DNA of 64,000 bases from a phage. This document shows positions 2,891-61,428 of the stretch, one piece after another. Below the pieces are notes generated by a model that made no database searches, was not told where the DNA came from, and saw nothing but the letters and a program-made list of their open reading frames with translations. The stretch lies in the sequence record PZ229304.1; one strand, 5' to 3'. The translations under genes were made by a program, and so were the position numbers. Position 1 is the stretch's first letter. The number at the start of each line of letters is the position of its first letter.

Positions 2891-5710
2891 ATGTATCCTA
2901 TTCCTTTATTTATGTCAACAACATCAGCTTCAGTAGTAACAGCTACATCTATAACCACTTCCTCTATTGGTATTGCAATAGTTGGTAGTAAAAAGCAACT
3001 GACATACACAGTTTCACCGGAAGATGGTGCGTTATTTGATATAGATTTTTCATCTTCAGATAATACCAAAATGGTTATAGATAATAATGGTATGATGGAG
3101 TTTGTTGCTGAAGGTGGTTTTGATGCAATAATGACAGCTAAAAATAATTTAGGTGCTGTCTTAACTGATCAATCTGGTGGTTATGCTTCAGAATTAAGTG
3201 TGTACACTGAAAGTCTATCTGCTATGGATGTAGGCACTACTCAACAGTTGGTTGCTACAATCAGTCCAGAAGGTGCTAAAGACCTTCCAGATATGGTAAT
3301 TACGTACACCACAACAGATCCAGAAGTGGCTACTGTAAGCCCTACAGGATTAATAACTGCTCTTAAAGATGGTAATTGCCGTATAGGTTGTACTGCAACG
3401 TATCAAGGAACAGTTGTGGCCTCTGATAGTTCTTATTTAGGTGTTAATGCTATTCCTGTTATTTCTAATGTAACAGCCGTGGCAAACAGCTATGGAGACG
3501 TTCGTGTTGCTTGGGATGTAGCTGATCCGCTAGATGGTGATACTTATACTGTAGAAGTATTAGATTTAAGTAATAATAGTGTTCAGTGGACTACAACAAC
3601 CACGAATACTCATGCTTACTTTGATATCTCTGACTCTATTCCTCTTTATGGGTTTGCTCCAACATACCTTAAAATTAGCGTTAAGAGCACCAAAGCAGCA
3701 GCCGTTATCTTTAATAACTCAATAGCTACAGATGATTCATTCATTAAAGAAGTTATTGTCTTTGCTGGACAAGATAACGTAAATGCACACTTTACAGAAC
3801 TATCTGGTGCAAATAAAGCAGCAATGAGTAGCACAACAGCCCGTAATGCATATGCTACGCAACGTGGTTTAGCAAATGCTGAAGTTCTTCCGTTAAATAC
3901 AGCTTCTGGATCATCAGCAGCAGATAAATATGCTGACGATAAAGCTGGAACAGGAACACCAGACAACTACTGGTATGATCTGGATAACACAGCAGATGGG
4001 CCATGCTTAACTAACTTTATCACTAAAGTCACACCTTATGCAAGTAAGGTTAAAGCCATTATTTGGGGACAAGGTGAAAATGATGCTGTATCAGCATCTT
4101 CAACTGTTGCAGGTAGATACAGTAACACTACACGTTACCATGATGCTACGATAGCTATCTTTGATAAGATGCGTACAATAGTTCCTGCTTCTCAAGCAAA
4201 AATTGTTTGGCAGATCCTAGGACGTTCTTATTTATATGGTGTAGAAGTCAATGGTGTGGATTGGCAGAAATACAGAAATGTACAAAGAGCCATCTCTACG
4301 GCACGTGATGATGTTATCATTGGTTCTTGGGTAGATGGTGCTGAACGTTACAGTGGTTACGTTTATGAAGAAGGTATTGATGGTCGTATCCATTATATTT
4401 CTTCTGTATACCAGACAGCAGCTACAAAACTTGCTAAATCAGCAGCAGACGGTACAGACCTAACATCAACGTCACCTGTTTGGGTTGATATGGCTGTTCC
4501 AACTGGAGCAACAGCTACTTCCCAACCTAATCAAGATACAATTTTAGCATGGGATGCTCAAGGCTATAGTAAACACTACTTCCGTAATATTAACGTCTTA
4601 ACCGCATCTGTATTAACTGAACAAACGCTTAATACGAACAGTTATACGTTTACCTATGCAGATCAAGTAGCACAATATGGTTTTGCAGCAGGAACTACTA
4701 TATTTGATGTTGCATATTATGACGAAGCAAATGATGTGTTATCTCCTTTAGTACGTTTTAATGTTAACGTTACAGCAGGAACCGAAGAAGATAAACCTGT
4801 CGTGATGGACTATGATTTGACGCAAGAAACTCTCCCATCAGATGTTAAGGTTAATGGTGGGAACTCTTTTGCTCGTGCTTCTGGAGATAAACTTGTAGCC
4901 ACTAACACCTTGGTTGCTCCGTTGGAGTATGTTGGTACTACCCCTGTAGGTAGACGTGTAACAGCTAACACAGCTACACAAATTTTTGTCAACAACGCCT
5001 TAACAAGTGCAAGCCCGTGGGTAAAGACCAACTTAACTGTTGCAGCTTCATCTGATAACTCTCCGGCTGGAACTACTGCTAATGTATTCAAATTAACTCC
5101 GACTACAACCTCTGGTAGTCATATCTTAACTGCAACATATACTAACGCGTACAACATAAATGCCGGACGTAACTGGTCTGCCTCTGTTTTCTTGAAAGCG
5201 AACGGGATTACTAAGGCTAAACTAAGATTAAAAGCAGGAACTGAAGTTAATGAGGGTACTTTTGATTTAGCAGCAGGTACATTCACAGGAAGTGAAGCTA
5301 ATATTATATCTATGGGCAACGGTTGGTATCGTGCTATTCTGCATAAAACAGGGATAGCCAAACAGTCCTTCATAAGTTTTGAAATAATTGCCTTGGATGC
5401 AACTGGTGCAGAGATTTTCGCTGGAAATGGTACTAGTAACCTTGCAGTTTGGTTGCCACAGCTTGAAGGTGCTTCTACAGGAGAAACATCAAAAGCTGGA
5501 TCGCCTTATGTCTGCACATATCCTGGAAATTTAGGAGGAGTATCCTTCACTATACCAAGGAACGGACATACTGGTGTGGATGTTTACTATTCCAACGGAG
5601 ACGTTGTTCGTGACGTATTCTCTGGTACGGCATCTACTTGGACAATAAACTACTCCAGCTTGTACGATTGGGGATCAGTCTTTATTACAGGTTTGAAATA
5701 TTACGACTAA
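2891..5710 (+). CDS. Large tail fibre/tailspike protein with Ig-like (Big_2-type) repeats, FN3-like region and SGNH/SASA-type carbohydrate esterase-like region
   Basis: 939-aa ORF with AAGGAG RBS; Big_2-like segment (ATISPEGAKDLPDMVITYTTTDPEVATVSPTGLITALKDGNCRIGCTATYQG); AGQDNVN and WGQGENDA motifs resemble the GQSNM / QGEsD motifs of sialate-O-acetylesterase-type SGNH hydrolases (from memory of the family, not searched). Confidence 0.55.
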   Translation: MYPIPLFMSTTSASVVTATSITTSSIGIAIVGSKKQLTYTVSPEDGALFDIDFSSSDNTKMVIDNNGMMEFVAEGGFDAIMTAKNNLGAVLTDQSGGYASELSVYTESLSAMDVGTTQQLVATISPEGAKDLPDMVITYTTTDPEVATVSPTGLITALKDGNCRIGCTATYQGTVVASDSSYLGVNAIPVISNVTAVANSYGDVRVAWDVADPLDGDTYTVEVLDLSNNSVQWTTTTTNTHAYFDISDSIPLYGFAPTYLKISVKSTKAAAVIFNNSIATDDSFIKEVIVFAGQDNVNAHFTELSGANKAAMSSTTARNAYATQRGLANAEVLPLNTASGSSAADKYADDKAGTGTPDNYWYDLDNTADGPCLTNFITKVTPYASKVKAIIWGQGENDAVSASSTVAGRYSNTTRYHDATIAIFDKMRTIVPASQAKIVWQILGRSYLYGVEVNGVDWQKYRNVQRAISTARDDVIIGSWVDGAERYSGYVYEEGIDGRIHYISSVYQTAATKLAKSAADGTDLTSTSPVWVDMAVPTGATATSQPNQDTILAWDAQGYSKHYFRNINVLTASVLTEQTLNTNSYTFTYADQVAQYGFAAGTTIFDVAYYDEANDVLSPLVRFNVNVTAGTEEDKPVVMDYDLTQETLPSDVKVNGGNSFARASGDKLVATNTLVAPLEYVGTTPVGRRVTANTATQIFVNNALTSASPWVKTNLTVAASSDNSPAGTTANVFKLTPTTTSGSHILTATYTNAYNINAGRNWSASVFLKANGITKAKLRLKAGTEVNEGTFDLAAGTFTGSEANIISMGNGWYRAILHKTGIAKQSFISFEIIALDATGAEIFAGNGTSNLAVWLPQLEGASTGETSKAGSPYVCTYPGNLGGVSFTIPRNGHTGVDVYYSNGDVVRDVFSGTASTWTINYSSLYDWGSVFITGLKYYD

Positions 5711-22371: not shown

Positions 22372-22604
22372 TACACATTCTCCTCTTTTACCAATTCCAT
22401 CGTTGAACTATCAAAACCATCTTTAGAAGAATAGGTATAGACAGAACGTAGTTCGCGCAGGACAGTGAATACATTAGGATCATCTAACCAAGCATCCTGG
22501 AGGAGAACATAACGATCTTCATTGTCGTACTGGACAGCAATCATAGAACCAGACAGTTTGTAAATTTTAATATTCATAATATATTTCTCCTTAAAGTAGA
22601 CCAC
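22371..22604 (-). CDS. Hypothetical protein
   Basis: 77-aa ORF. Confidence 0.35.
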   Translation of the reverse strand: MVYFKEKYIMNIKIYKLSGSMIAVQYDNEDRYVLLQDAWLDDPNVFTVLRELRSVYTYSSKDGFDSSTMELVKEENV

Positions 22605-23694
22605 GTTTAACAGTTTGAATCATGCCATCTTCAAGAGATTGCACTTCTTGAATGTAATCAATACGAGCAGCACGGGCTTCAGTGTTGATTCGGTTAGTTT
22701 CTTCCAACATTTTAACTAAGTTTTCTTGATCACGACGTAATGTTTCAATATCCAACACTTGACGATTAGCAAGTTGTGTAGCTTCAATTTGGTTTTGTGC
22801 AGCAAGATCACTACCCATTGCAATAGCAGCATTAAATTCATTCAGTACATTGTTCTGTGTATCGGCTGCTTTCTTCTGGCGTAGACTTTCAATATACATA
22901 GAAAAGTTTGCAGAGTAAGCAGGAATAACATTATTCACAATATTACGGGCTGATCGCATCAAACTTGCAGATACTTTCTGCATACTTTGTACACGTGGCC
23001 CCATCTGAACACACAGTAAGCGTAGGGCTTTCAGGTCTGCAATACGAATTTCAAGCAGATCCATAGTATCACGAGTACGTTGACGCTCTTCTACCTCATT
23101 TTCAGGCAGTGTATTAAGGCGAACTTCTTCTTTTTCATAAGTAGCTGTTAGAAGCTCTATATCTCTGTTTAAGCTAAGAGCATATTTGGCAATAGCCTCT
23201 TCTAAACGTTGCAGATATCGTAAAGAATCTTCTTCTTTTTTCAAGTCTGTTTGGAGTGTCTTTACCAAACCTTCAATACGATTATTGATGGTGTCAAATT
23301 CTCCAAACAAATCTTCTTTCATACCTAATACTTTCTTAACTAACTTACCTAAACCTTTAGATTGTTTAATAGAATTAGGATCAAGTTGCTTTGCTTGCTT
23401 AATAAGTGCAGTTAAACGTTCACTCATTTCATCTCCCTGAGATGAACGCTGGTGTTTAAGCACTTCAGCATTAAGGTTACGAAGAGTAAGTCCTGCATCA
23501 GCACCAACCTGTTCAATCTCTTCACGAGACATTGGAGGCAGCATTTGTACAGGTCGTGCAACAGCAGGGGCATATACAGGACTTGCATCCATAGCAGTTG
23601 GAGCAAACAAAGACTTACTTTTTTCTGTTGTTGCCGTGAATACACTCATTTCAGACGGTTTGCTTTTTACGGCACTGATAAAAGGACTGGACAT
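22591..23694 (-). CDS. TelA/KlaA-like (toxic anion resistance family) coiled-coil protein, tentative
   Basis: 367 aa, predominantly coiled-coil, size and composition compatible with TelA; assignment leans on genomic context (TerD, vWA, TerC neighbours) rather than a recognised signature. Confidence 0.4.
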   Translation of the reverse strand: MSSPFISAVKSKPSEMSVFTATTEKSKSLFAPTAMDASPVYAPAVARPVQMLPPMSREEIEQVGADAGLTLRNLNAEVLKHQRSSQGDEMSERLTALIKQAKQLDPNSIKQSKGLGKLVKKVLGMKEDLFGEFDTINNRIEGLVKTLQTDLKKEEDSLRYLQRLEEAIAKYALSLNRDIELLTATYEKEEVRLNTLPENEVEERQRTRDTMDLLEIRIADLKALRLLCVQMGPRVQSMQKVSASLMRSARNIVNNVIPAYSANFSMYIESLRQKKAADTQNNVLNEFNAAIAMGSDLAAQNQIEATQLANRQVLDIETLRRDQENLVKMLEETNRINTEARAARIDYIQEVQSLEDGMIQTVKRGLL

Positions 23695-35412: not shown

Positions 35413-38187
35413 TTAGTTTACCAGTTTATTTATATCTGGTAAAAGATTTATTTCACCTAAAAAATCACCTTCACCTTCCTCTAACCAACTCTCATATGCT
35501 TGTGCATGATTATAGTTACCATCAAAAGAATCTGCAACAAATTTTTCTACAGTTTTTCGAGATGTGTCAGCGCCAAATACACCAAGTTTAATACCATTGA
35601 TCGGTAAAGTGGTACTTGTTGGTACTTTCTCTGTTGCAACACGGTTGATATCTATAATCTCCTGTACGGTTGTGTTCCATTGTAAGCATTTAACACAACG
35701 GGTATGCGCTACATACAGTAGGTTTCGCTCTGCCTCTTCCAGTCCTACCCATTCACCAGTCTTTTTATCATAGTTGGAAGGAAAATCATTAGCAACAATA
35801 ACCTGATCCCACTCCAAACCTTTAGACTTGTGTGCTGTAGTCAGTGTGACTTTTGCTGTAGGAGAATTTCTATGCGTTCTAAGTGTATGTGCTATAGTGT
35901 TTGCCTTACCAGAAACTACGATGTTTAACAAGCGTTTAGCATCTGGATCAGCCTCTGCACACTCAACAAATTCATTCCAGTCTGCGTAAGGTAATACAGT
36001 TTCATGTTTTACTTTCTCAATATCTCCTCTCCGAAGAGCATTAACACTATCTACCATAGAGATAAAATCCCTGGTATCTACGTTAATAATAATTTCTTCC
36101 CCATCTGCAATACGATCCATTGCCTCCATAAGCAAGGTTAAATTCTTGCGAAAGATGATAGTGTAAGGTTTTGTATAGTCTACAACATCTGATTTGTAGC
36201 TACCTACTACAGTATCAAAGCCTTTACCAACCAAAGGGTGACGCAAAGGTTCTTTATCGCTTAAAATCATATTGGCAATGTTTGCCACTTTGGGGCCAAA
36301 ACGGAAGCAAGCAGTTAATGGAAGCTCTGCTCCATACTTAGCTGTTTCAATCATCATATTAGAGCTACCTCTAAATTGATAAATGCAGTTGTGGCTAAGA
36401 ATTTCATTACCAAAGAAGTTAGCAGTATCCTCTACTTCAATATCATAATAGATACCTTCACTATCTACAATGTCCACAATTTCTTCTGCCGTTACAGTAT
36501 CACCATCTTTTACCAACACAGACATGCCTTTAAACAAACCCGCCGCCGGAATTAAAGTATATTTGGCGGTGTTCACAGAGGACATGCATTCTTTTAAAGA
36601 TGCAAACGGCACTATTTCAAGGATCTTTTGTGCAAAACTCAATGCTTCACGATAAGAATTGAAATATTTACGTACACGGTAACGACCTTCCAACTTAGCA
36701 ACACTTACGCTTACACCTGCTTCAATGAGTGAAGCATAGATTGACATTTCACTTTCTGTCCACTCAAAACTAACTTGTGTTCCTTTACAACCTTGTGCTC
36801 GCAAAGTCACTGTTAACATTTTTCTTTCATCTACTGCACAATTGATGCTGTGCCAATGTGGATAAGCAAAATGATAATCTTTATCCTCTAAAAGTTTAAA
36901 ACCGTTTTGTCCGAATTGTTCAAAAATGTTATTGATCCTTTCTTGATTAATGCCGCGTGAACTTGCTTCAAATACACAAGTAGGAATGCCATATTGTAAA
37001 CTGTATGCCATTTCTTTTTCCATAGCAGCTTCACGGTTTTCAACAATATCCAACACCCATAATTTCTGTGCTTTTTCAGAACGTGTACGTTGCCCCAGTT
37101 TAGAAAAACCTTCTTTATCATCGAATTTGTTAGTGATCCCTACTCGGAAACCTAAATCTTTCCTCCACATTAGGTATACCACCATCTGATCATCTTTCAG
37201 AACATAGGATGAAGCCCAAATACGATGGTTATGTGTCATATCTAAAGTTTTACCTGTGGCAGTAATAATATTCCTACCTTTTGTACGTGTAGATAAAGTC
37301 TTATTTGTTACTTTTCTAAATGTAATTTTACCATTAGAATAAGACTCTACCTTATCACCGATTTGTAGGTCTTTCATTGTAACCTGACCATTCTCGGTAT
37401 TAAGTACCGTGTTTTCCGACACACATTGGAATTCATCGCCCACTACCACAATTTGTTTTGCAGATTTAGCATTTCGCAGAATAGACAAGAATGCAGGGTT
37501 AACATCCTGGAATTCATCACCAAAAATAATGTCATAACCAAGGTCAGCACCTGATAATTCAAACAATTTTACATAGGTGTCATGCGTCATCAAAGTATCT
37601 GTGTTAGGATCGATGCGCTCTCGCCACAATTGTTTTGCATACTTAACTACTTCTGTAATTAGTTTGTGTTCGTTAATACCTTTTCTTTTAATATCTGCAA
37701 GATGTACACTAGGAAAATGTTTACGGCTGATAAAAGGATCATCCGAAAATTCAAACTTACCTACGGTTTGCTTGATCATTAAACCAATCATAGCACGAGT
37801 TAACAGTGTTTTCCCTCGTTTATCAATAAGATTATTAATCTTAAATTTCTTTGCTATCTCGCTACCTGTACCTGCAACGTTAACATACTGTCCTTCTGGT
37901 CGTGACAGTTTTGCACGTAAACGATGATCCAGGAATTGATAGCAAATAGAATGCAATGTACGGCATTCTACATTTAGTGGCATCTTACGTCGTGCTTCTT
38001 CTGCCATGCTTTTATTGAAAGCTAAGTAAAGAATGCGATCTTCTGTACTGTTAGCCAGCAAATAAAGTGTTGACGTTTTGCCTGATCCAGATTTAGCTTG
38101 GATAGTTAAAAAGCGATGGTCTGGAAAAGCCTCCTTAATAGCTGTTTGCTCTTCTGTTGGAGTGAAGCTCAACTCTTTCTTAGCCAT
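35413..38187 (-). CDS. Superfamily-1 DNA helicase (UvrD/Dda-like) interrupted by an intein
   Basis: Start set at MAKKEL (GAGAGG RBS); Walker A AKSGSGKTST, motif II FGDEFQD; motif III is split: VVVGDEFQ | C...346 aa...HN | CIYQFRGSS, which rejoins to VGDEFQCIYQFRGS. Confidence 0.8.
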   Translation of the reverse strand: MAKKELSFTPTEEQTAIKEAFPDHRFLTIQAKSGSGKTSTLYLLANSTEDRILYLAFNKSMAEEARRKMPLNVECRTLHSICYQFLDHRLRAKLSRPEGQYVNVAGTGSEIAKKFKINNLIDKRGKTLLTRAMIGLMIKQTVGKFEFSDDPFISRKHFPSVHLADIKRKGINEHKLITEVVKYAKQLWRERIDPNTDTLMTHDTYVKLFELSGADLGYDIIFGDEFQDVNPAFLSILRNAKSAKQIVVVGDEFQCVSENTVLNTENGQVTMKDLQIGDKVESYSNGKITFRKVTNKTLSTRTKGRNIITATGKTLDMTHNHRIWASSYVLKDDQMVVYLMWRKDLGFRVGITNKFDDKEGFSKLGQRTRSEKAQKLWVLDIVENREAAMEKEMAYSLQYGIPTCVFEASSRGINQERINNIFEQFGQNGFKLLEDKDYHFAYPHWHSINCAVDERKMLTVTLRAQGCKGTQVSFEWTESEMSIYASLIEAGVSVSVAKLEGRYRVRKYFNSYREALSFAQKILEIVPFASLKECMSSVNTAKYTLIPAAGLFKGMSVLVKDGDTVTAEEIVDIVDSEGIYYDIEVEDTANFFGNEILSHNCIYQFRGSSNMMIETAKYGAELPLTACFRFGPKVANIANMILSDKEPLRHPLVGKGFDTVVGSYKSDVVDYTKPYTIIFRKNLTLLMEAMDRIADGEEIIINVDTRDFISMVDSVNALRRGDIEKVKHETVLPYADWNEFVECAEADPDAKRLLNIVVSGKANTIAHTLRTHRNSPTAKVTLTTAHKSKGLEWDQVIVANDFPSNYDKKTGEWVGLEEAERNLLYVAHTRCVKCLQWNTTVQEIIDINRVATEKVPTSTTLPINGIKLGVFGADTSRKTVEKFVADSFDGNYNHAQAYESWLEEGEGDFLGEINLLPDINKLVN
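36388..37425 (-). mobile_element. Intein (about 346 aa, Cys1 ... His-Asn, +1 Cys) inserted in helicase motif III; size suggests an embedded homing-endonuclease domain
   Basis: N-terminal Cys directly after GDEFQ, block-B-like TxxH (DMTHNH), C-terminal ILSHN followed by extein Cys; excision restores a canonical helicase motif. Confidence 0.7.
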
Positions 38188-38188
38188 T

Positions 38189-38665
38189 TCAACCTCTCTT
38201 AATTTGTTTAACAAGCATAGGAACAAAGTCTCGTTTTAAAATTTGTTCAATAATATGATCAGGTAGCTGTTGGAAATTATAATTAAAAGCTACTGTCTCA
38301 CCTTTAGGTGTTTCTACCCGCACATATAACATGTTACGAAGTTTATCCACTTGTGCTGTATATTCTAAACCATGTAATTGATGCATTGCAAACATCAAAT
38401 CATCAGTTTCAGTTTGGAATCTATCCCTTCCCTGCATCAAGGACAAGGAAAAAGGTAGATTTTCCCTAAGAGCCACCTTCTTAGGCACTAGTGAAGGGAA
38501 ATACTCCCCAATAACTGCCTGTGTAAGCTGAATACACTCTTTTTCAAGCTGGTTTTGTTCCTTGAGTTCACAAACACTCTTTTGTAAAGTGTTAACCTCT
38601 TTTTGCAAAGCTGCTAGTTGAGCACTTAACTTTCTTTTTTGATTACGACCAAAACGTTTAGACAT
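38189..38665 (-). CDS. Hypothetical protein (coiled-coil N-terminus)
   Basis: 158-aa ORF. Confidence 0.4.
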   Translation of the reverse strand: MSKRFGRNQKRKLSAQLAALQKEVNTLQKSVCELKEQNQLEKECIQLTQAVIGEYFPSLVPKKVALRENLPFSLSLMQGRDRFQTETDDLMFAMHQLHGLEYTAQVDKLRNMLYVRVETPKGETVAFNYNFQQLPDHIIEQILKRDFVPMLVKQIKRG

Positions 38666-39210: not shown

Positions 39211-39651
39211 TTAAACGTTTTCTAAATCTTTTAAGGCATTACCCAACGTTAAAACAATAACATCGTTTGCTGCCTCTTCCCCATTGATATTGGTGAAATT
39301 TGGTGTGACAAAAGTAACCATATAAAACTCGTCCACCTGGAAGATAGCAATAACACCATCCATCTTAACATCTTGACGAAAGGAAAAACCAATCATCTTC
39401 TCTTGCAAAGGCATATCCCCTTCCTTCATTACCGCTAGGGAGTTTTCAGGAATGTTATATTTATCTGCTCCTATGTAGATGTACGTAATGTTATCTTTAT
39501 CGTGATGATACAGGGTTGCTTTTTCCATATCTAAACCTGACAAATCAAATACGTTAATTTCTTGTGTAGTCTTCATAAATATCCTCCCAAATCCAATAAT
39601 CATCTGTGTAAGTAGGATGCCTTTTATCCCACTCTGTTCTAGCCCAAGCAA
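39211..39651 (-). CDS. Hypothetical protein
   Basis: 146-aa ORF; true start may be internal because the 5' end overlaps the upstream gene. Confidence 0.35.
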   Translation of the reverse strand: MLGLEQSGIKGILLTQMIIGFGRIFMKTTQEINVFDLSGLDMEKATLYHHDKDNITYIYIGADKYNIPENSLAVMKEGDMPLQEKMIGFSFRQDVKMDGVIAIFQVDEFYMVTFVTPNFTNINGEEAANDVIVLTLGNALKDLENV

Positions 39652-45806: not shown

Positions 45807-46934
45807 ATGAAATACACGATTTATGGTGATATTGTAAGTGTAAATAAAGATATGGGCGTGGAATCTAACTATCTTCCACCTGGATTCTATACTGTTAGTC
45901 GTGATCCCCTTGGCAATTACTTTTTAAGCCGTGGTAATCTAACAGGTGTACCGGATGTTCTGTATGGTGAAACAGAAAAACGAGCAAATCACGTTATTCG
46001 TACATTCCATCGCCGGAGTGCACAAGGTAAAAATACAGGCTTGCTTCTGACAGGAACTAAGGGCAGTGGTAAAACTATGTTAGCCAAACTCATTAGTCGT
46101 GACCTTGTAGAAGAAGGTATTCCAACTATTATGGTTACTCAAGCCTACAGTGATGCTAATTTCATTGAACTTATTAGTAAGATCACCGACAAAGCAGTGA
46201 TTATTTTTGACGAATTTGATAAAGTATATGAGAAGAAACAAGATCAAGAAGCACTTCTCACTTTGTTAGATGGTACTGGCAGTGGTAATAAACTGTTTAT
46301 TCTAACTAAAAACAGTGGCTTTATCTCTGAATTCTTTCTAAATCGTCCTAGTCGTGTGTTTTATAATTTTAATTATGATAAAATCTCACTAGAAACTATG
46401 ATTGACTATTTAGATAAAAACCTGGATAACAAAGCACACTTGGATAATTTCCAAAGGCTTTGGGATGTAAGTTTAGAGTTGTCCTTTGATGTGATCCAAG
46501 GTATAGTAGAAGAACTTAATTTCTACCCTGATTTATCCTTTAAAGAATGCATCTCTATGATGGGCGTTTCTTTGGGTGGTGGTAATAAGTGGGATATCAG
46601 CAGCGTTGTTATTAATGGGAAACTTCAGAAAGTTAGCTGGGTATCTAGTTGGCATAACTTCACACCTGCAATCTTTTTAGGTGGCTCGTGCACACTAGAC
46701 GTGTACTTGTCATCTCCAAGTGATGCAGACTCTAAAGAAGCCCTTGCTAATAGCTCTTACGTGGTTTTTGATGATGAAGGAGATGCTCGAATTCCATTGA
46801 ATGCGACAAAAATGAAAGCAGATCTTATTACAGGCGGTAAAATCGTTGTGTTTAGTGATGATCCAGAAGATTCTTTCCGTATTGTTCTGGAACCAACTAT
46901 CACCAATGGTGCAACTTTGGCAAGTGTGTTTTAA
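45807..46934 (+). CDS. P-loop ATPase (AAA+-like), paralog 2
   Basis: 375 aa; collinear with 29630..30790 (GTKGSGKT, IIFDEFDK, LTKN, NRPSRVFYNF). Confidence 0.55.
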   Translation: MKYTIYGDIVSVNKDMGVESNYLPPGFYTVSRDPLGNYFLSRGNLTGVPDVLYGETEKRANHVIRTFHRRSAQGKNTGLLLTGTKGSGKTMLAKLISRDLVEEGIPTIMVTQAYSDANFIELISKITDKAVIIFDEFDKVYEKKQDQEALLTLLDGTGSGNKLFILTKNSGFISEFFLNRPSRVFYNFNYDKISLETMIDYLDKNLDNKAHLDNFQRLWDVSLELSFDVIQGIVEELNFYPDLSFKECISMMGVSLGGGNKWDISSVVINGKLQKVSWVSSWHNFTPAIFLGGSCTLDVYLSSPSDADSKEALANSSYVVFDDEGDARIPLNATKMKADLITGGKIVVFSDDPEDSFRIVLEPTITNGATLASVF

Positions 46935-47008: not shown

Positions 47009-48202
47009 ATGGCAGCACCAAAATCATGGGAACAATATAAAGAAGAGTGTCAACCTATTGCGAATAATAAAGGGATTGAGATCCTAGGATATGTTGAACC
47101 GTTTATAGGTTGTGATACGAAAATGATTCTACGCTGTAGGCAGGAACATGAATGGAAGACTTGTAGTATTAGTAATTTCAAGCACGGTAACAGTTGTCCT
47201 ATCTGTTCTGGTAAGAAGCCGTTAACATGGGAAACAGAATTGCCGATCTTGGAAGAGATAGCACAGAAGAAGGGGTATCAGGTGTTAGGGTACGTTGGAG
47301 AATGGAAAGGGAATAAAACAAAACTTGATTTGTTGTGCCATTGTGGGAATAGATGGCAAAGTACAGCAATTCATCAATTTAAAGGCGGTCGAGGTTGTCC
47401 ACAATGTAGGGGGGAGAATACAAGGAAGGCACTAACAATGTCCGACGATCAACATATTGCAGATTTCTTTTCTACAGGGAAATTTAAGGAAGGCACTATC
47501 TTCACTAACACAGGAACACGGAGTAAAGGATGCAGGCATAGTATCTGGATGGTTGAATGTCCTGTTTGCTCTCATGATGAATATGTTCAAGCAGGTGTTT
47601 GTGATGGTAAATTTTACTCTGAAGGAAATAACCTTAAACGAGGGTGCATTCCGTGTCGTTGTGGAAACTATCGGTATACAGAAGACCAGATCACCTATAG
47701 GGTAAAAAAGGAAGTAGAAGGGCAAGGGTATGTCTGGGTAGGTTGGATCGGTAAACCGTCTAGAAGTCACGGTAAGTTTAAATATCTTTGTCTTGTGCAT
47801 GGGGAACAGACAGGGAGGGCTAATAACTTATTAAGCCTCGGTCAAGGTTGTCCACAGTGTGCTGGTCATAATCAACAGCAATTATATATTAATATTGTTA
47901 AAGATAATGATATTATAGTGGCTCTTAAGTTTGGTATAGCTAAAGATAGTGATAGGCGATTAAATAGTCAAAATAGTTGTAATATGTTTTTTATGGAGCG
48001 TATTTGTTTATATGATTTTAGCACAGTGAAACAATGTAAGGCTGCTGAAAGAGCTATAAAGAAAAAATTAAAAACTGGTATTTTAACGGAAAGAGAGTTG
48101 AAAGACGGTTATACAGAAACAGTAAGTGTTTCTGATTTGGAAAATCTTCAAGAAATTATTACACAACATGGTGGCAAATTAGTATATAATAAGGAGATGT
48201 AA
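47009..48202 (+). CDS. Zinc-ribbon repeat protein with C-terminal T5orf172/GIY-YIG-like region (tentative)
   Basis: 397 aa; four repeats each ending in a CxxC pair (CPICSG, CPQCRG, CIPCRCG, CPQCAG) with a conserved GY.VLGYV / TK(M/L) / EW pattern; C-terminus QLYINIVKDNDIIVALKFGIAKDSDRRL weakly resembles T5orf172-type domains. Confidence 0.35.
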   Translation: MAAPKSWEQYKEECQPIANNKGIEILGYVEPFIGCDTKMILRCRQEHEWKTCSISNFKHGNSCPICSGKKPLTWETELPILEEIAQKKGYQVLGYVGEWKGNKTKLDLLCHCGNRWQSTAIHQFKGGRGCPQCRGENTRKALTMSDDQHIADFFSTGKFKEGTIFTNTGTRSKGCRHSIWMVECPVCSHDEYVQAGVCDGKFYSEGNNLKRGCIPCRCGNYRYTEDQITYRVKKEVEGQGYVWVGWIGKPSRSHGKFKYLCLVHGEQTGRANNLLSLGQGCPQCAGHNQQQLYINIVKDNDIIVALKFGIAKDSDRRLNSQNSCNMFFMERICLYDFSTVKQCKAAERAIKKKLKTGILTERELKDGYTETVSVSDLENLQEIITQHGGKLVYNKEM

Positions 48203-49170: not shown

Positions 49171-49195
49171 TTTCGTGTTTTTATAGGTGTGCGTA

Positions 49196-49303
49196 TGATA
49201 ATCATTCTCATTTGTAAATGAGAATCATTATCATTTAAGTATGTAAGTGATAATCATTCTCATTAAGAGAATGAGAATCATTAGCAAATGAGAATTTTTC
49301 TCA
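49196..49303. promoter_or_regulatory. Cluster of five Fur-box-like 15-mers (TGATAATCATTCTCA and variants)
   Basis: Sites at 49196-49210, 49219-49233, 49248-49262, 49272-49286, 49289-49303; best sites match the 7-1-7 Fur consensus TGATAATnATTATCA at 14/15. Confidence 0.5.
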
Positions 49304-49567
49304 TTTAGAGAATAACGCGCAGGGGCGGTGTTTGTCTCGCGCTCCCGTGTCCCCTCGCCATACAATAAGAATAGCATAACCAACAACAAAAGCAAGCGAT
49401 TATTTTTATCTTTACATTTCTTTACAAATTTATTTTAGACGAGCTACCGGCGATCAACCTTCCAACCAGTGCCCCCTGGTATGTTAGCCCCGCCTTTACG
49501 CCGTGGGGGTGGCGCTTCCTCTTCTGTATGTAAAACAGTATAAGCCCGATCCCTGGGCTTGTCAAGA

Positions 49568-59127: not shown

Positions 59128-59156
59128 TTGACACCGGATCACGCTTACATTATTAT
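59128..59156 (+). promoter_or_regulatory. Sigma70-like promoter (TTGACA-17-TATTAT) followed by conserved CACGTAGGGC
   Basis: Consensus-like hexamers; conserved post--10 element but no GGCGGG hairpin. Confidence 0.5.
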
Positions 59157-59202
59157 TTATCACGTAGGGCAAATCATTTTAAACGGTAAACGAGGAATCA
59201 CC

Positions 59203-59586
59203 ATGAGCAATATCATCAACCTGGCGGCTACTGTAAACGGTAAAGATTTTAACGGCGCTGTAGATCGTGATCCTATGTGGTGCTTATCCGTGTTTAAAGG
59301 CGATCTGGTTGAAGTTAGAACAACCGAAGGTTATAGCGACGATTATAAATGCGAGATCCATTTACACAACTGGTACACGGGTAAAACTTATGCGCTGAAT
59401 CATGCGTTTATCGGCAAGGTTGAATATAGAGAAATGATCGACGAAGAAACGGGGCAAGATTTTAGCGATTATGTTTATATCCGTTCCGAGACATTAGCAG
59501 AACGTTTGATCGAGAAAATGAAAGCAAAAAATAAAATTAATTTAGCTCATTGGATTGATATAACAAACGATCCAGCTTATAAGTAA
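59203..59586 (+). CDS. Hypothetical early protein
   Basis: Start set at MSNIINL (GAGGA RBS) within ORF 59128..59586. Confidence 0.45.
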   Translation: MSNIINLAATVNGKDFNGAVDRDPMWCLSVFKGDLVEVRTTEGYSDDYKCEIHLHNWYTGKTYALNHAFIGKVEYREMIDEETGQDFSDYVYIRSETLAERLIEKMKAKNKINLAHWIDITNDPAYK

Positions 59587-59599
59587 ATGACACTTCACA

Positions 59600-59629
59600 C
59601 CAGGGCGCACAAAGCGCCCTTTCTTTTTA
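59600..59629 (+). terminator. Rho-independent terminator (AGGGCGC-ACAAA-GCGCCCT + TTCTTTTT)
   Basis: 7-bp GC stem and T-rich tail 14 nt after stop; closes the early-gene block. Confidence 0.6.
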
Positions 59630-59835
59630 CCTAAATAAAGATGATAGCTTTTACCTATCAAAAACGTTCACCGAAAAAAGTGAATAGATCGCGGTATCGA
59701 GCTAATCAAGGAGCAGATGAACAACCATACCATGAAGATCATAAGGCGCTTACAGCGTGTTTTAGACCGCTTATTTTTAATTTCTTCATGCAACTATTTG
59801 GCAAAAACAGCCTTTTTCTTGTCTTTCCTCTTAAA

Positions 59836-59908
59836 TGATAATCATTCTTATTTATAGCTGATTATTTATGCAATAAACTGCATAATGCAATAATGATAAT
59901 CATTCTTA
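59836..59908. promoter_or_regulatory. Two Fur-box-like sites (TGATAATCATTCTTA) 58 bp apart
   Basis: 59836-59850 and 59894-59908; second site extends to ATAATGATAATCATTCTTA (16/19 to classic Fur box GATAATGATAATCATTATC). Confidence 0.45.
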
Positions 59909-60295
59909 ACTTATGACCATCTAACCTATAAAATAATAAGTTATCTAACTAAATTAAAACTAATTATCTTACTTTTATTTATAACTTACTGTTACTATCT
60001 CATTGATAACCTTATATTAAACAACAATAACTAATATAAATCATTACTAAGCTAAATATAATCTATCTAACCTTTAAAACTATAACTATAATCTATTGAA
60101 TTATTGCACAAAGTAACTATTAAATCGTTAGTAACATTACTAAATAATTAATATCCTATCTATTTATGATCTAATCTTTACATTCCTATCTATTACCTAA
60201 ATAATCATTTCATATAGTAATCATTTCATACAATAACTATAACAAGAAATATAATTCGCAAGCGTATCATTAGCAGCCTATGCCGGACACATAGG

Positions 60296-60442
60296 CGGCT
60301 AATAATAACGCAACTACACACCCCACATAATAACTATCACCGATAGTTATTATTTGTGCTTATGTAGCTTGCAACAACTGCAAGCGCAACAATATACATG
60401 GTATATTGTATCCCTTACATTGTTGCGGTGCGTTATTATTAG
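60296..60442. repeat. Nested palindromic region: long-range inverted repeat enclosing three hairpins
   Basis: Outer arms GCTAATAATAACGCAAC (60298-60314) / GTTGCG..GCGTTATTATTAGC (60422-60442); inner perfect 12-bp palindrome ATAATAACTATC-ACC-GATAGTTATTAT (60327-60353); GCTTGCA-ACAAC-TGCAAGC (60367-60385); CAATATAC-ATGG-GTATATTG (60388-60407). Confidence 0.55.
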
Positions 60443-60771
60443 CTAATGTTTAGAACATTGGCTATAATATAAGCTAAATCATAAGCTATGCAATAATAAA
60501 CATGGTGAATAATGACATTGATGATCATAATGCGCCACCTTCCAGGGGGCGCTATGTGAACACAAAGAAATCTTTCTTGTCAAGAAAATATTACTACTAT
60601 TGCGCAAAATTATTTATATCTGAATAGATGATTTTTTATGCTATTGCCCCCTTGATTATTACTATTTGTTGCCCTAACTATTGTCATTTGTTGAGCCTAC
60701 TTTCTTAAAAGCGCAATAAATCAGAATTATCTTGATTTTTAGTCGGTTTTATAGTACAGAAAGTATGCAAA

Positions 60772-60786
60772 TGATAATCATTATCA
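60772..60786. promoter_or_regulatory. Perfect match to the 15-bp 7-1-7 Fur-box consensus (TGATAATCATTATCA)
   Basis: Extended context AATGATAATCATTATC equals positions 4-19 of the classic 19-bp Fur box. Confidence 0.55.
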
Positions 60787-60952
60787 GCTATCTTCCACGG
60801 GTGGCACTATTTCACGCCAGATCATTTCATTTGGCAAGGTGTATATAGATGTTTAGAAATGCCAAGCCATTGATTTACTTAGAATTTATCTGTTTTGTTG
60901 TGAGTAGTGCCTTTCTTGCTCAGAAAATAATCAAAAGTCTTATAAGTCATTG

Positions 60953-60990
60953 AATGATAATGCAAATGATAATTATTCTCATTGATATTT
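60953..60990. repeat. GATAAT hexamer repeat cluster (AATGATAATGCAAATGATAATTATTCTCATTGATA)
   Basis: Several GATAAT/ATTATC-type hexamers in direct and inverted orientation, followed by a G-rich tract. Confidence 0.4.
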
Positions 60991-61428
60991 GAGGGGGACG
61001 GTCGGCAGAAATCGGGGGGCGCTGAAAATCGCGTTAAGCACCTCTCGCAAGCGAGCAGTATTTTGCGGCAAGTTATTGATATTATTGACTTTACGCTTAA
61101 GAAAAGGGGGCGTGTCGAAATAAATCGGGTATACCGGAAAATTTTTGTGGCATAGATATTTATTTGTCTATATTATGTACAAAGGGGTGTGTTAAAAATA
61201 ATAGGTATATATAGAATAATTGATAGGGAAATCCTATACTAAATCCTTCATTAATGATGTTCCTATGTTGCTGTTCTTGTAATAGATGAAAAGACGCTAT
61301 ATGATGTGTGGCATGAAACGTAAACTTATAAGATGCAAATAATGCTTGCATTGAATAGAAATGTCTATACACTGTGTTTCATAAGATATGCAATATCGCG
61401 CATAACAAACTACTAATGAGAGGTGTAA

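What the first reader, a model, noticed from the sequence alone, without database searches (positions are those of the whole stretch)
60296..60442. Nested palindromic element: long inverted repeat enclosing three consecutive hairpins
Outer arms GCTAATAATAACGCAAC / GTTGCG..GCGTTATTATTAGC flank a perfect 12-bp-arm palindrome (ATAATAACTATC-ACC-GATAGTTATTAT), a 7-bp-arm hairpin (GCTTGCA...TGCAAGC) and an 8-bp-arm hairpin (CAATATAC-ATGG-GTATATTG). Such dense dyad symmetry in non-coding DNA is characteristic of replication origins, packaging or nicking sites, or structured RNAs.
Basis: seen in the sequence. Interest (0 to 1): 0.5.

Follow-up and report, generated by a model that had tools for sequence, protein, structure and literature searches.

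The report
Conserved DNA fold beside phage terminal repeat
The nested palindrome is real: it is a strongly conserved four-way fold of one DNA strand (or its transcript), it sits just upstream of the terminal repeat in phi92-like phages, similarly placed counterparts occur in rV5-like phages, and its most likely job is in replicating or maturing the genome end.

Summary
A 15-bp outer stem (60298-60312/60429-60443) encloses three arms and forms a compact four-way junction. A further hairpin, H0 (60270-60302), lies just before it. This is the strongest 160-nt fold in the whole 64-kb window.

The window is a phi92-like myophage with a T7-like replisome. The element is single-copy and non-coding. 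It lies 251 bp upstream of the 343-bp direct terminal repeat (DTR; window 60694-61036).

All 133 related phage records carry it. In 31 homologs 97% of pair cells are Watson-Crick and 15 pairs show compensatory double changes. Wobble pairs and folding energy both point to the bottom (-) strand as the folded strand.

A weakly CM-matched nested palindrome in rV5-like phages and a sequence-unrelated one in Mydovirus/Seunavirus-like phages occupy the same position. Each lies about 210-300 bp upstream of a DTR determined with PhageTerm.

There is no Rfam, tRNA, terminator or mobile-element match.

Best explanation (about 0.38): a bottom-strand fold that primes or organises duplication of the terminal repeat, like the T7 right-end hairpin repeat. 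Rivals are an origin/primer RNA and a minus-strand ncRNA. The function is inferred, not shown.

The parts
60270..60302 (-). Hairpin H0. Core stem 60276-60282/60290-60296, loop CCGGACA. The extension TTAGC 60270-74 / GCTAA 60298-60302 competes with the outer stem.
   Evidence: Inverted repeat I2. The 7 core pairs are 100% paired in 28 sequences, and 3 pairs show double changes (GC<->CG twice, UA<->CG). All 38 columns of 60260-60297, which cover the H0 core, are invariant in 5 Justusliebigvirus genomes.
60298..60312 (-). Outer stem, left arm (GCTAATAATAACGCA).
   Evidence: 100% complementary to 60429-60443 (I4). Eleven bp are invariant, and 3 inner pairs covary (AU/CG, CG/GC, GC/CG/AU) across 29 distinct sequences.
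60314..60367 (-). Arm 1. Base helix CTACA 60314-18 / TGTAG 60363-67. Middle helix CACA / TGTG. Terminal hairpin P1 60327-38 / 60342-53 with a 3-nt loop.
   Evidence: Folds. P1 has 6 of 9 pairs with compensatory double changes, and its stem sequence differs completely between genera. On the - strand the base helix gains a conserved U.G/C-G pair.
60367..60385 (-). Arm 2 (P2): GCTTGCA, loop, TGCAAGC. The stem is invariant and the loop varies.
   Evidence: Six of the seven stem pairs are identical in all 29 distinct homologs. The loop-closing pair is A.C in 3 of them, including the window. Loops vary: ACAAC, ACAAT, ATAAT, ATTAT, ATGCT and others.
60385..60427 (-). Arm 3. Base helix CGCAACAAT 60385-93 / ATTGTTGCG 60419-27, with the optional terminal hairpin P3 60390-97 / 60401-08.
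   Evidence: The base helix covaries (UA/CG/UG, UA/CG). P3 is present only in Justusliebigvirus and KP2025, where it is compensated as GATGTAT/ATACATC. It is absent in Phapecoctavirus, Tr1 and several metagenomic relatives.
60429..60443 (-). Outer stem, right arm (TGCGTTATTATTAGC).
59950..60259 (.). A 310-bp tract of 19.7% GC between the last gene's terminator region and H0. It contains the tandem 16-mers at 60202-60233. It may be a DNA-unwinding region; whether it belongs to the element is uncertain.
   Evidence: It is not conserved in sequence between genera. The equivalent tract is AT-rich in some relatives (23-32% GC) but not in L151.
60694..61036 (+). Single copy of the 343-bp direct terminal repeat. 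It marks the physical genome ends, so the window reads through a concatemer-junction-like join.
   Evidence: Aligns end to end with both annotated DTR copies of phi92. A 342-bp DTR was found for BME3 with PhageTerm (PMC12210895). Both boundaries are conserved islands across genera.
59602..59620 (+). Intrinsic terminator after the gp30.8-like gene (59128-59586). It marks the end of the upstream transcription unit.

Best explanation
The element is a cis-acting fold of the bottom (-) DNA strand. It belongs to the right-end (concatemer-junction) module of a phage that packages unit genomes with short direct terminal repeats.

Concatemers hold one repeat copy per junction, so that copy must be duplicated before packaging. 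I propose the following sequence.
1. The bottom strand left of the repeat becomes single-stranded. This could happen by displacement from a nick at a repeat boundary, or when it is the lagging-strand template of a leftward fork.
2. The strand snaps into the H0 plus four-way-junction fold.
3. The fold then acts in one of two ways. It may be the loading and priming site for the phage's T7-gp4-like primase-helicase. Or, after nicking, it may act as a snap-back primer.
4. Either way, new top-strand synthesis runs rightward through the repeat to the end. This regenerates a complete right end.

This is the role assigned to the inverted repeat 190 bp left of the T7 terminal repeat.

Shown here: the structure, its conservation and covariation, the strand bias, its position relative to the determined ends, and the T7-like replisome. 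Inferred: every functional step.
For: Structure and selection
- The fold is exceptional.
- In the 24-homolog alignment (23 distinct sequences), 97.1% of pair cells are standard pairs, against 21-48% when partners are slid. Fifteen pairs have double changes, against 2-7 in slid controls.
- Among five Justusliebigvirus genomes all 10 variable columns fall in loops or bulges, or at one wobble site. Meanwhile 21-30% of flanking spacer columns vary.
- The element is one of only a few conserved islands in the 1.8-kb non-coding gap between genera.

Strand
- In the 31-homolog alignment (29 distinct), A.C on the + strand (G.T on the - strand) occupies 25 cells in about 8-9 events. G.T on the + strand occupies 6 cells in 1 event.
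- The - strand folds better in 26 of 26 homologs (DNA -36.6 against -32.0 kcal/mol; RNA -63.4 against -47.7).
- A conserved U.G/C-G pair exists only on the - strand.

Position
- The element ends 251 bp before the DTR in the window.
- It lies upstream of the DTR in every relative compared: about 200 bp in Schickermooser (329-bp DTR), about 275 bp in phi1_175008 (343-bp DTR), and up to about 500 bp in KP13-26.
- A CM-detectable counterpart in rV5-like LL12 (24.2 bits, E 2.5e-6; fold z -11.1) lies about 213 bp upstream of a 459-bp DTR determined with PhageTerm.
- A third nested palindrome is unrelated in sequence but also has an outer stem and three arms. It occurs in Mydovirus/Seunavirus-type phages (fold z -9.4). 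In KPP-1 it lies about 300 bp upstream of the 514-bp DTR found by coverage and PhageTerm, described there as T7-type packaging.

Machinery and precedent
- The window encodes a family-A DNA polymerase and a Toprim+DnaB_C primase-helicase.
- T7's best inverted repeat near its right end is centred about 190 bp left of the right terminal repeat.
- A hairpin DNA containing the terminal repeat, and models based on strand displacement or primase initiation, are cited for T7 (PMC4281155). The details of Chung, Nardone and Hinkle 1990 come from my own recollection.

No conserved sigma-70 promoter precedes the element on the - strand, and no U-tract terminator follows it on either strand.
Against: - No experimental datum links the element to end formation.
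- The whole module is syntenic: gp30.8-like gene, spacer, element, then DTR. Shared ancestry could therefore explain the adjacency to the DTR without any functional link.
- The element-to-DTR distance varies from about 200 to about 500 bp.
- Conserved G.T wobble pairs and the large RNA-energy advantage of the - strand fit an RNA at least as well as single-stranded DNA.
- The T7 repeat is a simple imperfect hairpin, not a four-way junction, and shares no sequence with this element.
- An 80% AT tract next to the element in this genus suits an origin equally well.
Confidence: 0.38

Rival explanations
1. Replication origin. A transcript made leftward through the element on the - strand folds, then forms a persistent hybrid in the adjacent 80% AT tract. 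There the gp4-like helicase-primase loads and leading-strand synthesis starts. This would be an origin of the T7 phiOR, T4 oriF or ColE1 RNA II kind.
For: - A 310-bp tract of 19.7% GC lies immediately 3' of H0 on the - strand, with tandem 16-mers.
- The region is a large non-coding gap.
- The replisome is T7-like.
- T7 has an annotated promoter, phiOR, at the equivalent place about 550 bp left of its right repeat. From my own recollection, phiOR also serves as a secondary origin.
- The - strand bias and G.U pairs fit an RNA.
Against: - The cumulative GC-skew minimum is at about 44 kb and follows gene orientation, with nothing at 60.3 kb. The rV5 authors saw the same (PMC3606486).
- There is no conserved - strand promoter.
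- There are no DnaA boxes nearby.
- The AT-rich tract is not conserved in sequence, and it is absent from the Mydovirus-type relative (40.5% GC).
Confidence: 0.2
2. A trans-acting or cis-regulatory non-coding RNA of about 180-200 nt is transcribed from the - strand. It would comprise the four-way junction followed by H0, with a function unrelated to the genome ends.
For: - The - strand is 15.8 kcal/mol more stable with RNA parameters in 26 of 26 homologs.
- Wobble pairs are conserved on that strand only.
- Covariation is strong.
- The alternative H0 versus outer-stem pairing resembles an RNA switch.
Against: - No Rfam family matches the element or its analogues.
- There is no conserved promoter and no intrinsic terminator.
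- The element is antisense to all neighbouring genes.
- Compensation is almost purely Watson-Crick on the + strand reading (1446 WC cells, 6 G.T).
- The loops are mostly 3 nt and lack GNRA/UNCG motifs.
- Three sequence-divergent versions keep the same position relative to the DTR, which a free-standing RNA gene does not require.
Confidence: 0.2
3. A double-stranded recognition site, either a pac-like site for the small terminase or an operator cluster, whose dyad symmetry reflects dimeric protein binding rather than any folded strand.
For: - The P2 stem (TTGCAA N3 TTGCAA) and 11 bp of the outer arms are invariant in sequence.
- ATTAGC-type motifs recur around the element.
- The element is close to the packaging cut sites.
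Against: - The P1, H0 and arm-3 stems change sequence completely while keeping complementarity. Duplex recognition does not predict this.
- The outer arms are 116 nt apart and still covary.
- Strand-asymmetric wobble has no meaning for a duplex site.
- ATTAGC is not enriched in the window (45 matches against 42 expected).
Confidence: 0.1
4. A transcription block or insulator (RNA hairpin or DNA structure) stops read-through from the upstream operon into the terminal repeat. Alternatively, the element is a neutral or selfish palindrome kept symmetrical by template-switch correction.
For: - It lies between two co-directional transcription units.
- The Vequintavirus counterpart is annotated as 'terminator' in two GenBank records.
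- Quasipalindrome correction can create concerted double changes without selection (general knowledge).
Against: - A canonical terminator already sits at 59602-59620, and the element has no U-tract.
- The + strand transcript is the weaker fold and carries the A.C mismatches.
- The element is single-copy and absent from E. coli genomes and plasmids.
- Stems are under clear purifying selection, and three lineages keep the architecture.
Confidence: 0.07

Closest known systems
Inverted repeat about 190 bp left of the right terminal repeat of phage T7. It is the site of the hairpin-ended concatemer-processing intermediate (Chung, Nardone and Hinkle 1990; cited in PMC4281155).
   Same: - Both phages have short non-permuted direct terminal repeats and a family-A polymerase plus gp4-type primase-helicase.
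- In both, a dyad-symmetric element lies a few hundred bp inside the right end, on the unique side of the repeat. In T7 its centre is about nt 39588; here the element ends 251 bp before the DTR.
- Both are non-coding or nearly so.
   Different: - The T7 repeat is one imperfect 19-nt-arm hairpin. This element is a 146-nt four-way junction with an extra hairpin.
- There is no sequence similarity.
- The in vivo hairpin intermediate is documented only for T7.
Single-strand initiation signals: the phage G4 complementary-strand origin (three hairpins recognised by primase), the phiX174 primosome assembly site, f1 (-) origin, plasmid sso, and F Frpo.
   Same: All are roughly 130-300 nt, strand-specific, multi-hairpin folds of one DNA strand. 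They act only when that strand is single-stranded and direct primer synthesis. The strand specificity matches the strand-biased wobble seen here.
   Different: Those elements live on ssDNA phages or rolling-circle and conjugative plasmids. This one is in a 146-kb dsDNA myophage next to its terminal repeat. No sequence motifs are shared, and priming has not been tested.
Terminal fold-backs of linear replicons: the AAV and parvovirus inverted terminal repeats (T- or Y-shaped, about 120-145 nt) and the palindromes of Streptomyces telomere 3' overhangs.
   Same: Both have nested palindromes with a long outer stem enclosing short hairpins with 3-nt loops. The size is similar (146 nt against 145 nt for AAV2). 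Both have a proposed role in priming synthesis at a genome end.
   Different: Those structures sit at the very terminus and exist in flip/flop or paired inverted copies. This element is about 600 bp inside the right end, is single-copy, and forms a four-way rather than a three-way junction.
Transcription-primed origins: T7 phi1.1A/B and phiOR, T4 oriF/oriG, and ColE1 RNA II.
   Same: In each a structured transcript or promoter lies next to an AT-rich unwinding region. T7 phiOR occupies the same genomic neighbourhood.
   Different: No promoter could be identified here, and there is no skew or other origin signature.

Membership tests
T7-type right-end hairpin repeat (concatemer-processing element) | The host phage has short, non-permuted direct terminal repeats and a T7-like replisome. 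| tested here: met
   The 343-bp DTR maps to 60694-61036. BME3 has a 342-bp DTR by PhageTerm. The window encodes PolA and a Toprim+DnaB_C protein.
T7-type right-end hairpin repeat (concatemer-processing element) | The dyad element lies a few hundred bp to the left of the right-end repeat copy. | tested here: met
   The distance is 251 bp in the window and about 200-500 bp in relatives. It is about 213 bp in LL12, about 300 bp in KPP-1 and 190 bp in T7.
T7-type right-end hairpin repeat (concatemer-processing element) | A hairpin-ended DNA intermediate forms at the repeat in infected cells, and the element is needed for processing and packaging. | not testable with these tools
   This needs intracellular DNA analysis and mutants.
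T7-type right-end hairpin repeat (concatemer-processing element) | Sequence or structure homology to the T7 repeat. | tested here: not met
   CM R1 finds nothing meaningful in the T7 right end (best 4.8 bits, E 1.4). The architectures also differ.
Rfam RNA families, tRNA and tmRNA | A covariance-model match at or near the gathering score, or an ARAGORN call. | tested here: not met
   There is no hit in 60260-60450. The hits elsewhere in the region are sub-threshold chance matches to snoRNA and miRNA models. The LL12-type and Mydovirus-type analogues give no hits. No tRNA was found.
Intrinsic (rho-independent) terminator | A GC-rich stem directly followed by a U/T tract. | tested here: not met
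   The terminator scan finds only 59602-59620 and an overlapping minus-strand site at 59618-59589. The sequence following the outer stem and H0 has no T-run on either strand.
Replication origin | An adjacent AT-rich unwinding region. | tested here: met
   GC is 19.7% over 59950-60259, against 37.8% for the window. The tract is not universal in relatives.
Replication origin | Initiator sites or a promoter, a skew inflection, and a marker-frequency peak. | tested here: inconclusive
   There is no DnaA box nearby and no conserved promoter. The skew minimum lies at 44 kb. Marker frequency is not testable here.
Single-strand initiation signal (G4 oric, sso or ssi type) | A strand-specific multi-hairpin fold of one DNA strand. 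| tested here: met
   The four-way junction covaries. The - strand is favoured in 26 of 26 homologs and by the wobble bias.
Single-strand initiation signal (G4 oric, sso or ssi type) | Primer synthesis by primase or RNA polymerase on the folded strand. | not testable with these tools
   This needs an in vitro priming assay.
Parvovirus-type inverted terminal repeat or telomere fold-back | The element is located at the physical terminus of the genome. | tested here: not met
   The element ends 251 bp before the DTR, which puts it about 600 bp from the right end.
Mobile or repetitive palindromic element (MITE, REP, ERIC) | Multiple dispersed copies, presence in host genomes, and target-site duplications. 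| tested here: not met
   There is one copy in 64 kb. There is no match in 5,426 E. coli genomes or 72,556 plasmids. All 133 phage records hold it, with essentially one match per record (134 places in 133 records).

The most novel reading that the evidence does not exclude
The whole rV5/phi92 supergroup (at least 315 sequenced phages in Stephanstirmvirinae and Vequintavirinae) carries a dedicated bottom-strand, branched fold-back element (four-way in two of the three versions found, three-way in the Vequintavirus version) just inside the right genome end. This element would be the cis-acting primer or organiser for duplicating short direct terminal repeats. That would be a general, previously unrecognised solution to the terminal-repeat duplication problem. 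Until now the problem has had only the T7 hairpin intermediate as experimental evidence.
Probability: 0.3. Interest if true: 0.8.

Novelty: new variant of a known kind. Interest (0 to 1): 0.6.

Why it matters
How phages with short direct terminal repeats regenerate the second repeat copy from concatemers is still unsettled, even for T7. The models rest on one hairpin intermediate described in 1990.

This element gives a sharply defined target for experiments. It is conserved, it covaries, and it is strand-specific. It sits at the equivalent position in a large family of therapeutic and model coliphages (phi92, rV5, phAPEC8 and the BASEL Bas phages). Stem-disrupting and stem-restoring mutants would directly test whether a folded single strand is needed for end maturation or for replication initiation.

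There are practical uses as well. The element is a reliable marker for orienting and opening assemblies of these phages, because the DTR starts about 200-500 bp downstream. It is also a region to leave intact when engineering them.

Tried and rejected
- Rfam scans of the region and of the two analogous elements found no family. ARAGORN found no tRNA.
- The promoter and terminator scan found nothing specific to the element. A custom sigma-70 scan of the - strand upstream region in 25 homologs found no consistently placed promoter.
- GC skew tracks gene orientation only.
- DnaA-box search found none near the element.
- I looked for extra copies of the conserved motifs. GCAAGCG is enriched in the window (11 against 3.4 expected), but the other sites have no common context. 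ATTAGC is not enriched.
- The host and mobile-element hypothesis failed: there is no match in E. coli genomes or plasmids.
- I looked for a mirror-image element on the other side of the DTR and found none.
- The metagenome pattern scan returned mostly chance matches to the short P2 palindrome. Only nine of the returned loci were true homologs after filtering.
- The neighbouring genes gave no functional hint. They are gp30.8-like (PF06019) or PHROGs of unknown function.
- The phi92 genome paper (J Virol 2012) is not in the held library. Literature searches for a transcriptome, or for any earlier description of the element, found nothing.
- CM R1 did not detect the Mydovirus-type element. I therefore treat it as an analogue, not a proven homolog.
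- A T7-primase-like GTGTC site lies in the H0 loop on the - strand, but it is not conserved in the Klebsiella group, so I dropped it.

Full report
**What is there**

- The perfect outer arms are 60298-60312 and 60429-60443 (15 bp).
- P1 is 60327-38/60342-53 with loop ACC.
- P2 is 60367-73/60379-85 with loop ACAAC.
- P3 is 60390-97/60401-08 with loop ATG.

Folding adds two helices: CTACA/TGTAG (60314-18/60363-67) and CGCAACAAT/ATTGTTGCG (60385-93/60419-27). The three hairpins therefore become the arms of a compact four-way junction closed by the outer stem.

A further hairpin, H0 (60270-60302), lies directly before the junction. Its base pairs the same GCTAA that starts the outer stem, so the two structures compete.

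The fold is far from chance. The z-score is -8.4 as DNA, and none of 200 shuffles does as well. It is the single best of 3193 sliding 160-nt windows in the 64-kb window.

**Where it is**

The window belongs to a phi92-like myophage (Justusliebigvirus, Stephanstirmvirinae). Its replisome is T7-like, with a family-A polymerase and a Toprim+DnaB_C primase-helicase.

The element lies in a 1.8-kb non-coding gap. On the left is a gp30.8-like gene (ends 59586, terminator 59602-59620). On the right is the first gene of the genome, the phi92 gp001 homologue (starts 61429).

Aligning the two annotated terminal repeats of phi92 places the 343-bp direct terminal repeat at 60694-61036. An independent PhageTerm result for phage BME3 gives 342 bp (PMC12210895). 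The element therefore ends 251 bp before the repeat, about 600 bp inside the right physical end of the virion DNA. There is only one copy in the window, and nothing comparable lies on the other side of the repeat.

**Conservation and covariation**

Three BLAST searches with divergent queries each return the same number of records, 133, with the same organism make-up. All are Stephanstirmvirinae-like phages, with essentially one match per record. E. coli genomes and plasmids have none.

Within Justusliebigvirus the element is 97-99% identical, while the surrounding 1.2 kb is about 94% identical. In five genomes H0 is invariant and the element is 93% invariant, against 70-79% for the two flanking spacers. 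All ten variable columns fall in loops or bulges, or at one wobble position. Between genera the element is one of only a few conserved islands in the gap. The others are the terminator and operator region and the two repeat boundaries.

I collected 31 homologs from GenBank phages, IMG/VR and metagenomes. I built a covariance model and re-aligned the sequences.
- On the hand-independent MAFFT alignment, 93.5% of pair cells are standard pairs and 14 pairs have changes on both sides.
- On the model alignment of 24 homologs the figures are 97.1% and 15 pairs (96 cells). When the 3' partners are slid they drop to 21-48% and 2-7 pairs.
- H0, the inner part of the outer stem, P1 and the base of arm 3 all covary.
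- P1 has entirely different stem sequences in different lineages: ATAACTATC, GGAATAATC, GAAACTATT, GTGACTATT and CAACGATT.
- P2 keeps an invariant stem with a variable loop.
- P3 is an optional arm tip, present only in Justusliebigvirus and KP2025.

**Which strand folds**

On the top strand the non-Watson-Crick cells are mostly A.C: 25 cells in about 8-9 independent events. G.T accounts for 6 cells in 1 event. A.C on the top strand is G.T on the bottom strand.

The bottom strand is the more stable fold in 26 of 26 homologs. The means are -36.6 against -32.0 kcal/mol with DNA parameters and -63.4 against -47.7 with RNA parameters. An alignment fold of the bottom strand shows a helix-extending U.G pair in 19 of 22 sequences that becomes C-G in the other three.

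The folded species is therefore the bottom strand or its RNA copy. The event count is small (binomial p of roughly 0.02-0.04), so I treat this as strong but not conclusive.

**A wider pattern**

The rV5-like phage LL12 has a 459-bp repeat determined with PhageTerm (PMC6658697). About 213 bp from it, on the side of the gp30.8-like gene, lies a very strong nested palindrome with an 18-bp outer stem (z -11.1). The covariance model detects it in the matching orientation (24.2 bits, E 2.5e-6). It shares the P1 sequence (TAACCATC...GATAGTT), including the same C.A mismatch. In total 118 Vequintavirus records carry it.

Using the gp30.8-like protein as an anchor, I found a third element in Mydovirus/Seunavirus/Certrevirus-type phages (64 records). 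It has a 21-bp outer stem enclosing three arms (z -9.4) and shows compensatory changes among three examples. It has no significant similarity to the model. In KPP-1 it lies about 300 bp from the 514-bp repeat found by coverage and PhageTerm, described there as T7-type packaging (PMC9862379).

The order is therefore gp30.8-like gene, spacer, nested palindrome, a few hundred bp, terminal repeat. It holds in three lineages that together have at least 315 sequenced genomes.

**What it is not**

- It is not an Rfam family, tRNA or tmRNA.
- It is not an intrinsic terminator, because there is no T-tract.
- It is not a dispersed or host-derived repeat.
- It is not protein-coding.
- A purely duplex protein-binding site does not explain long-range covariation or strand-biased wobble.

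**Most likely mechanism (inference)**

T7-type phages must duplicate the single repeat present at each concatemer junction. For T7, a hairpin-ended DNA containing the repeat has been reported, and models based on strand displacement or primase-initiated synthesis are cited (PMC4281155). T7's best inverted repeat near the right end is centred about 190 bp left of its repeat. That agrees with my recollection of Chung, Nardone and Hinkle (1990).

I propose that the four-way fold is the functional counterpart in the rV5/phi92 supergroup. When the bottom strand left of the repeat is single-stranded, it folds. It then either recruits the gp4-like primase-helicase or acts as a snap-back primer. Top-strand synthesis then runs through the repeat to the end. 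Confidence is about 0.38.

Two rivals fit the strand bias equally well.
- A transcription-primed origin that uses the adjacent 80% AT tract, about 0.20. It lacks a skew signal, a promoter and a universal AT tract.
- A minus-strand non-coding RNA, about 0.20. It lacks a promoter, a terminator and any known family.

A duplex pac or operator site (about 0.10) and a terminator, insulator or neutral palindrome (about 0.07) fit poorly.

**Novelty and limits**

I found no description of this element. The richly annotated phi92 record has no feature there. The rV5 paper only labels the region 'non-coding'. Two GenBank records call the Vequintavirus version a 'terminator'. The phi92 genome paper could not be read.

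The kind of element, a dyad element inside the right end of a terminal-repeat phage, has the T7 precedent. The branched architecture, the strand specificity and the breadth of conservation are new.

Everything about function is inference. Synteny by descent could explain the constant position next to the repeat. The covariation sample is phylogenetically clustered.

Noticed in passing
window 49190-49310; 59834-59850; 59892-59908; 60767-60785; 60962-60985; 36867-36885: A 19-bp palindromic motif (AATGAkAATCATTmTCATT) shares its core with the E. coli Fur box. Matches to the Fur consensus with up to 3 mismatches number 6, against 0.03 expected. At least five copies at 49.2 kb form the second strongest fold in the window. 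Two copies lie inside the terminal repeat. This could be a host Fur operator (iron-responsive early genes) or a phage repressor operator.
   Followed up: partly
window 60686-60739 and 61008-61064: Both boundaries of the terminal repeat are conserved islands across genera, while the spacers around them are not. These are probably the terminase nick or cut sites. A small hairpin, CTCG-CAAG-CGAG, sits at 61043-61054 just right of the right boundary.
   Followed up: partly
window 59950-60259: A 310-bp tract of only 19.7% GC contains a 16-bp tandem repeat (TAATCATTTCATAyAr, 60202-60233) and many short AT-rich repeats. It is not conserved in sequence between genera.
   Followed up: partly
L137 (LL12) 3040-3370 and Vequintavirus relatives (alignment A6): In LL12, phiWec191, A142 and magaca (4 of 5 genomes aligned; not V18) the Vequintavirus nested palindrome is flanked on both sides by the direct repeat ATGCAAACGAATGGCATGGC. 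LL12 also has a 33-nt insertion at the tip of the long arm.
   Followed up: no
window 35413-38226 (-) and 36857-36865: A UvrD-like helicase ORF is interrupted by an intein (Intein_splicing/Hint domains). A perfect DnaA box, TTATCCACA, lies at 36857-36865 next to a Fur-like site.
   Followed up: no
window 45807-46934, 47009-48202, 22591-23694: Three ORFs have notable domains: AAA/nSTAND-NTPase-like, CapR homology and TelA-like. They may be involved in host takeover or anti-defence.
   Followed up: no
window 60335 (P1): The window's P1 is a perfect palindrome. Seven of the eight other Justusliebigvirus copies aligned, and the rV5-like LL12 counterpart, carry C instead of T here. That gives C.A on the top strand and G.T on the bottom strand, so it is an old, tolerated wobble.
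   Followed up: yes
window 516, 6191, 42730, 49392, 49762, 51690, 52804, 56282, 60258, 60380, 61047: The heptamer GCAAGCG occurs 11 times, against 3.4 expected. Three of these are around the element and the repeat boundary, but the other sites share no context.
   Followed up: partly
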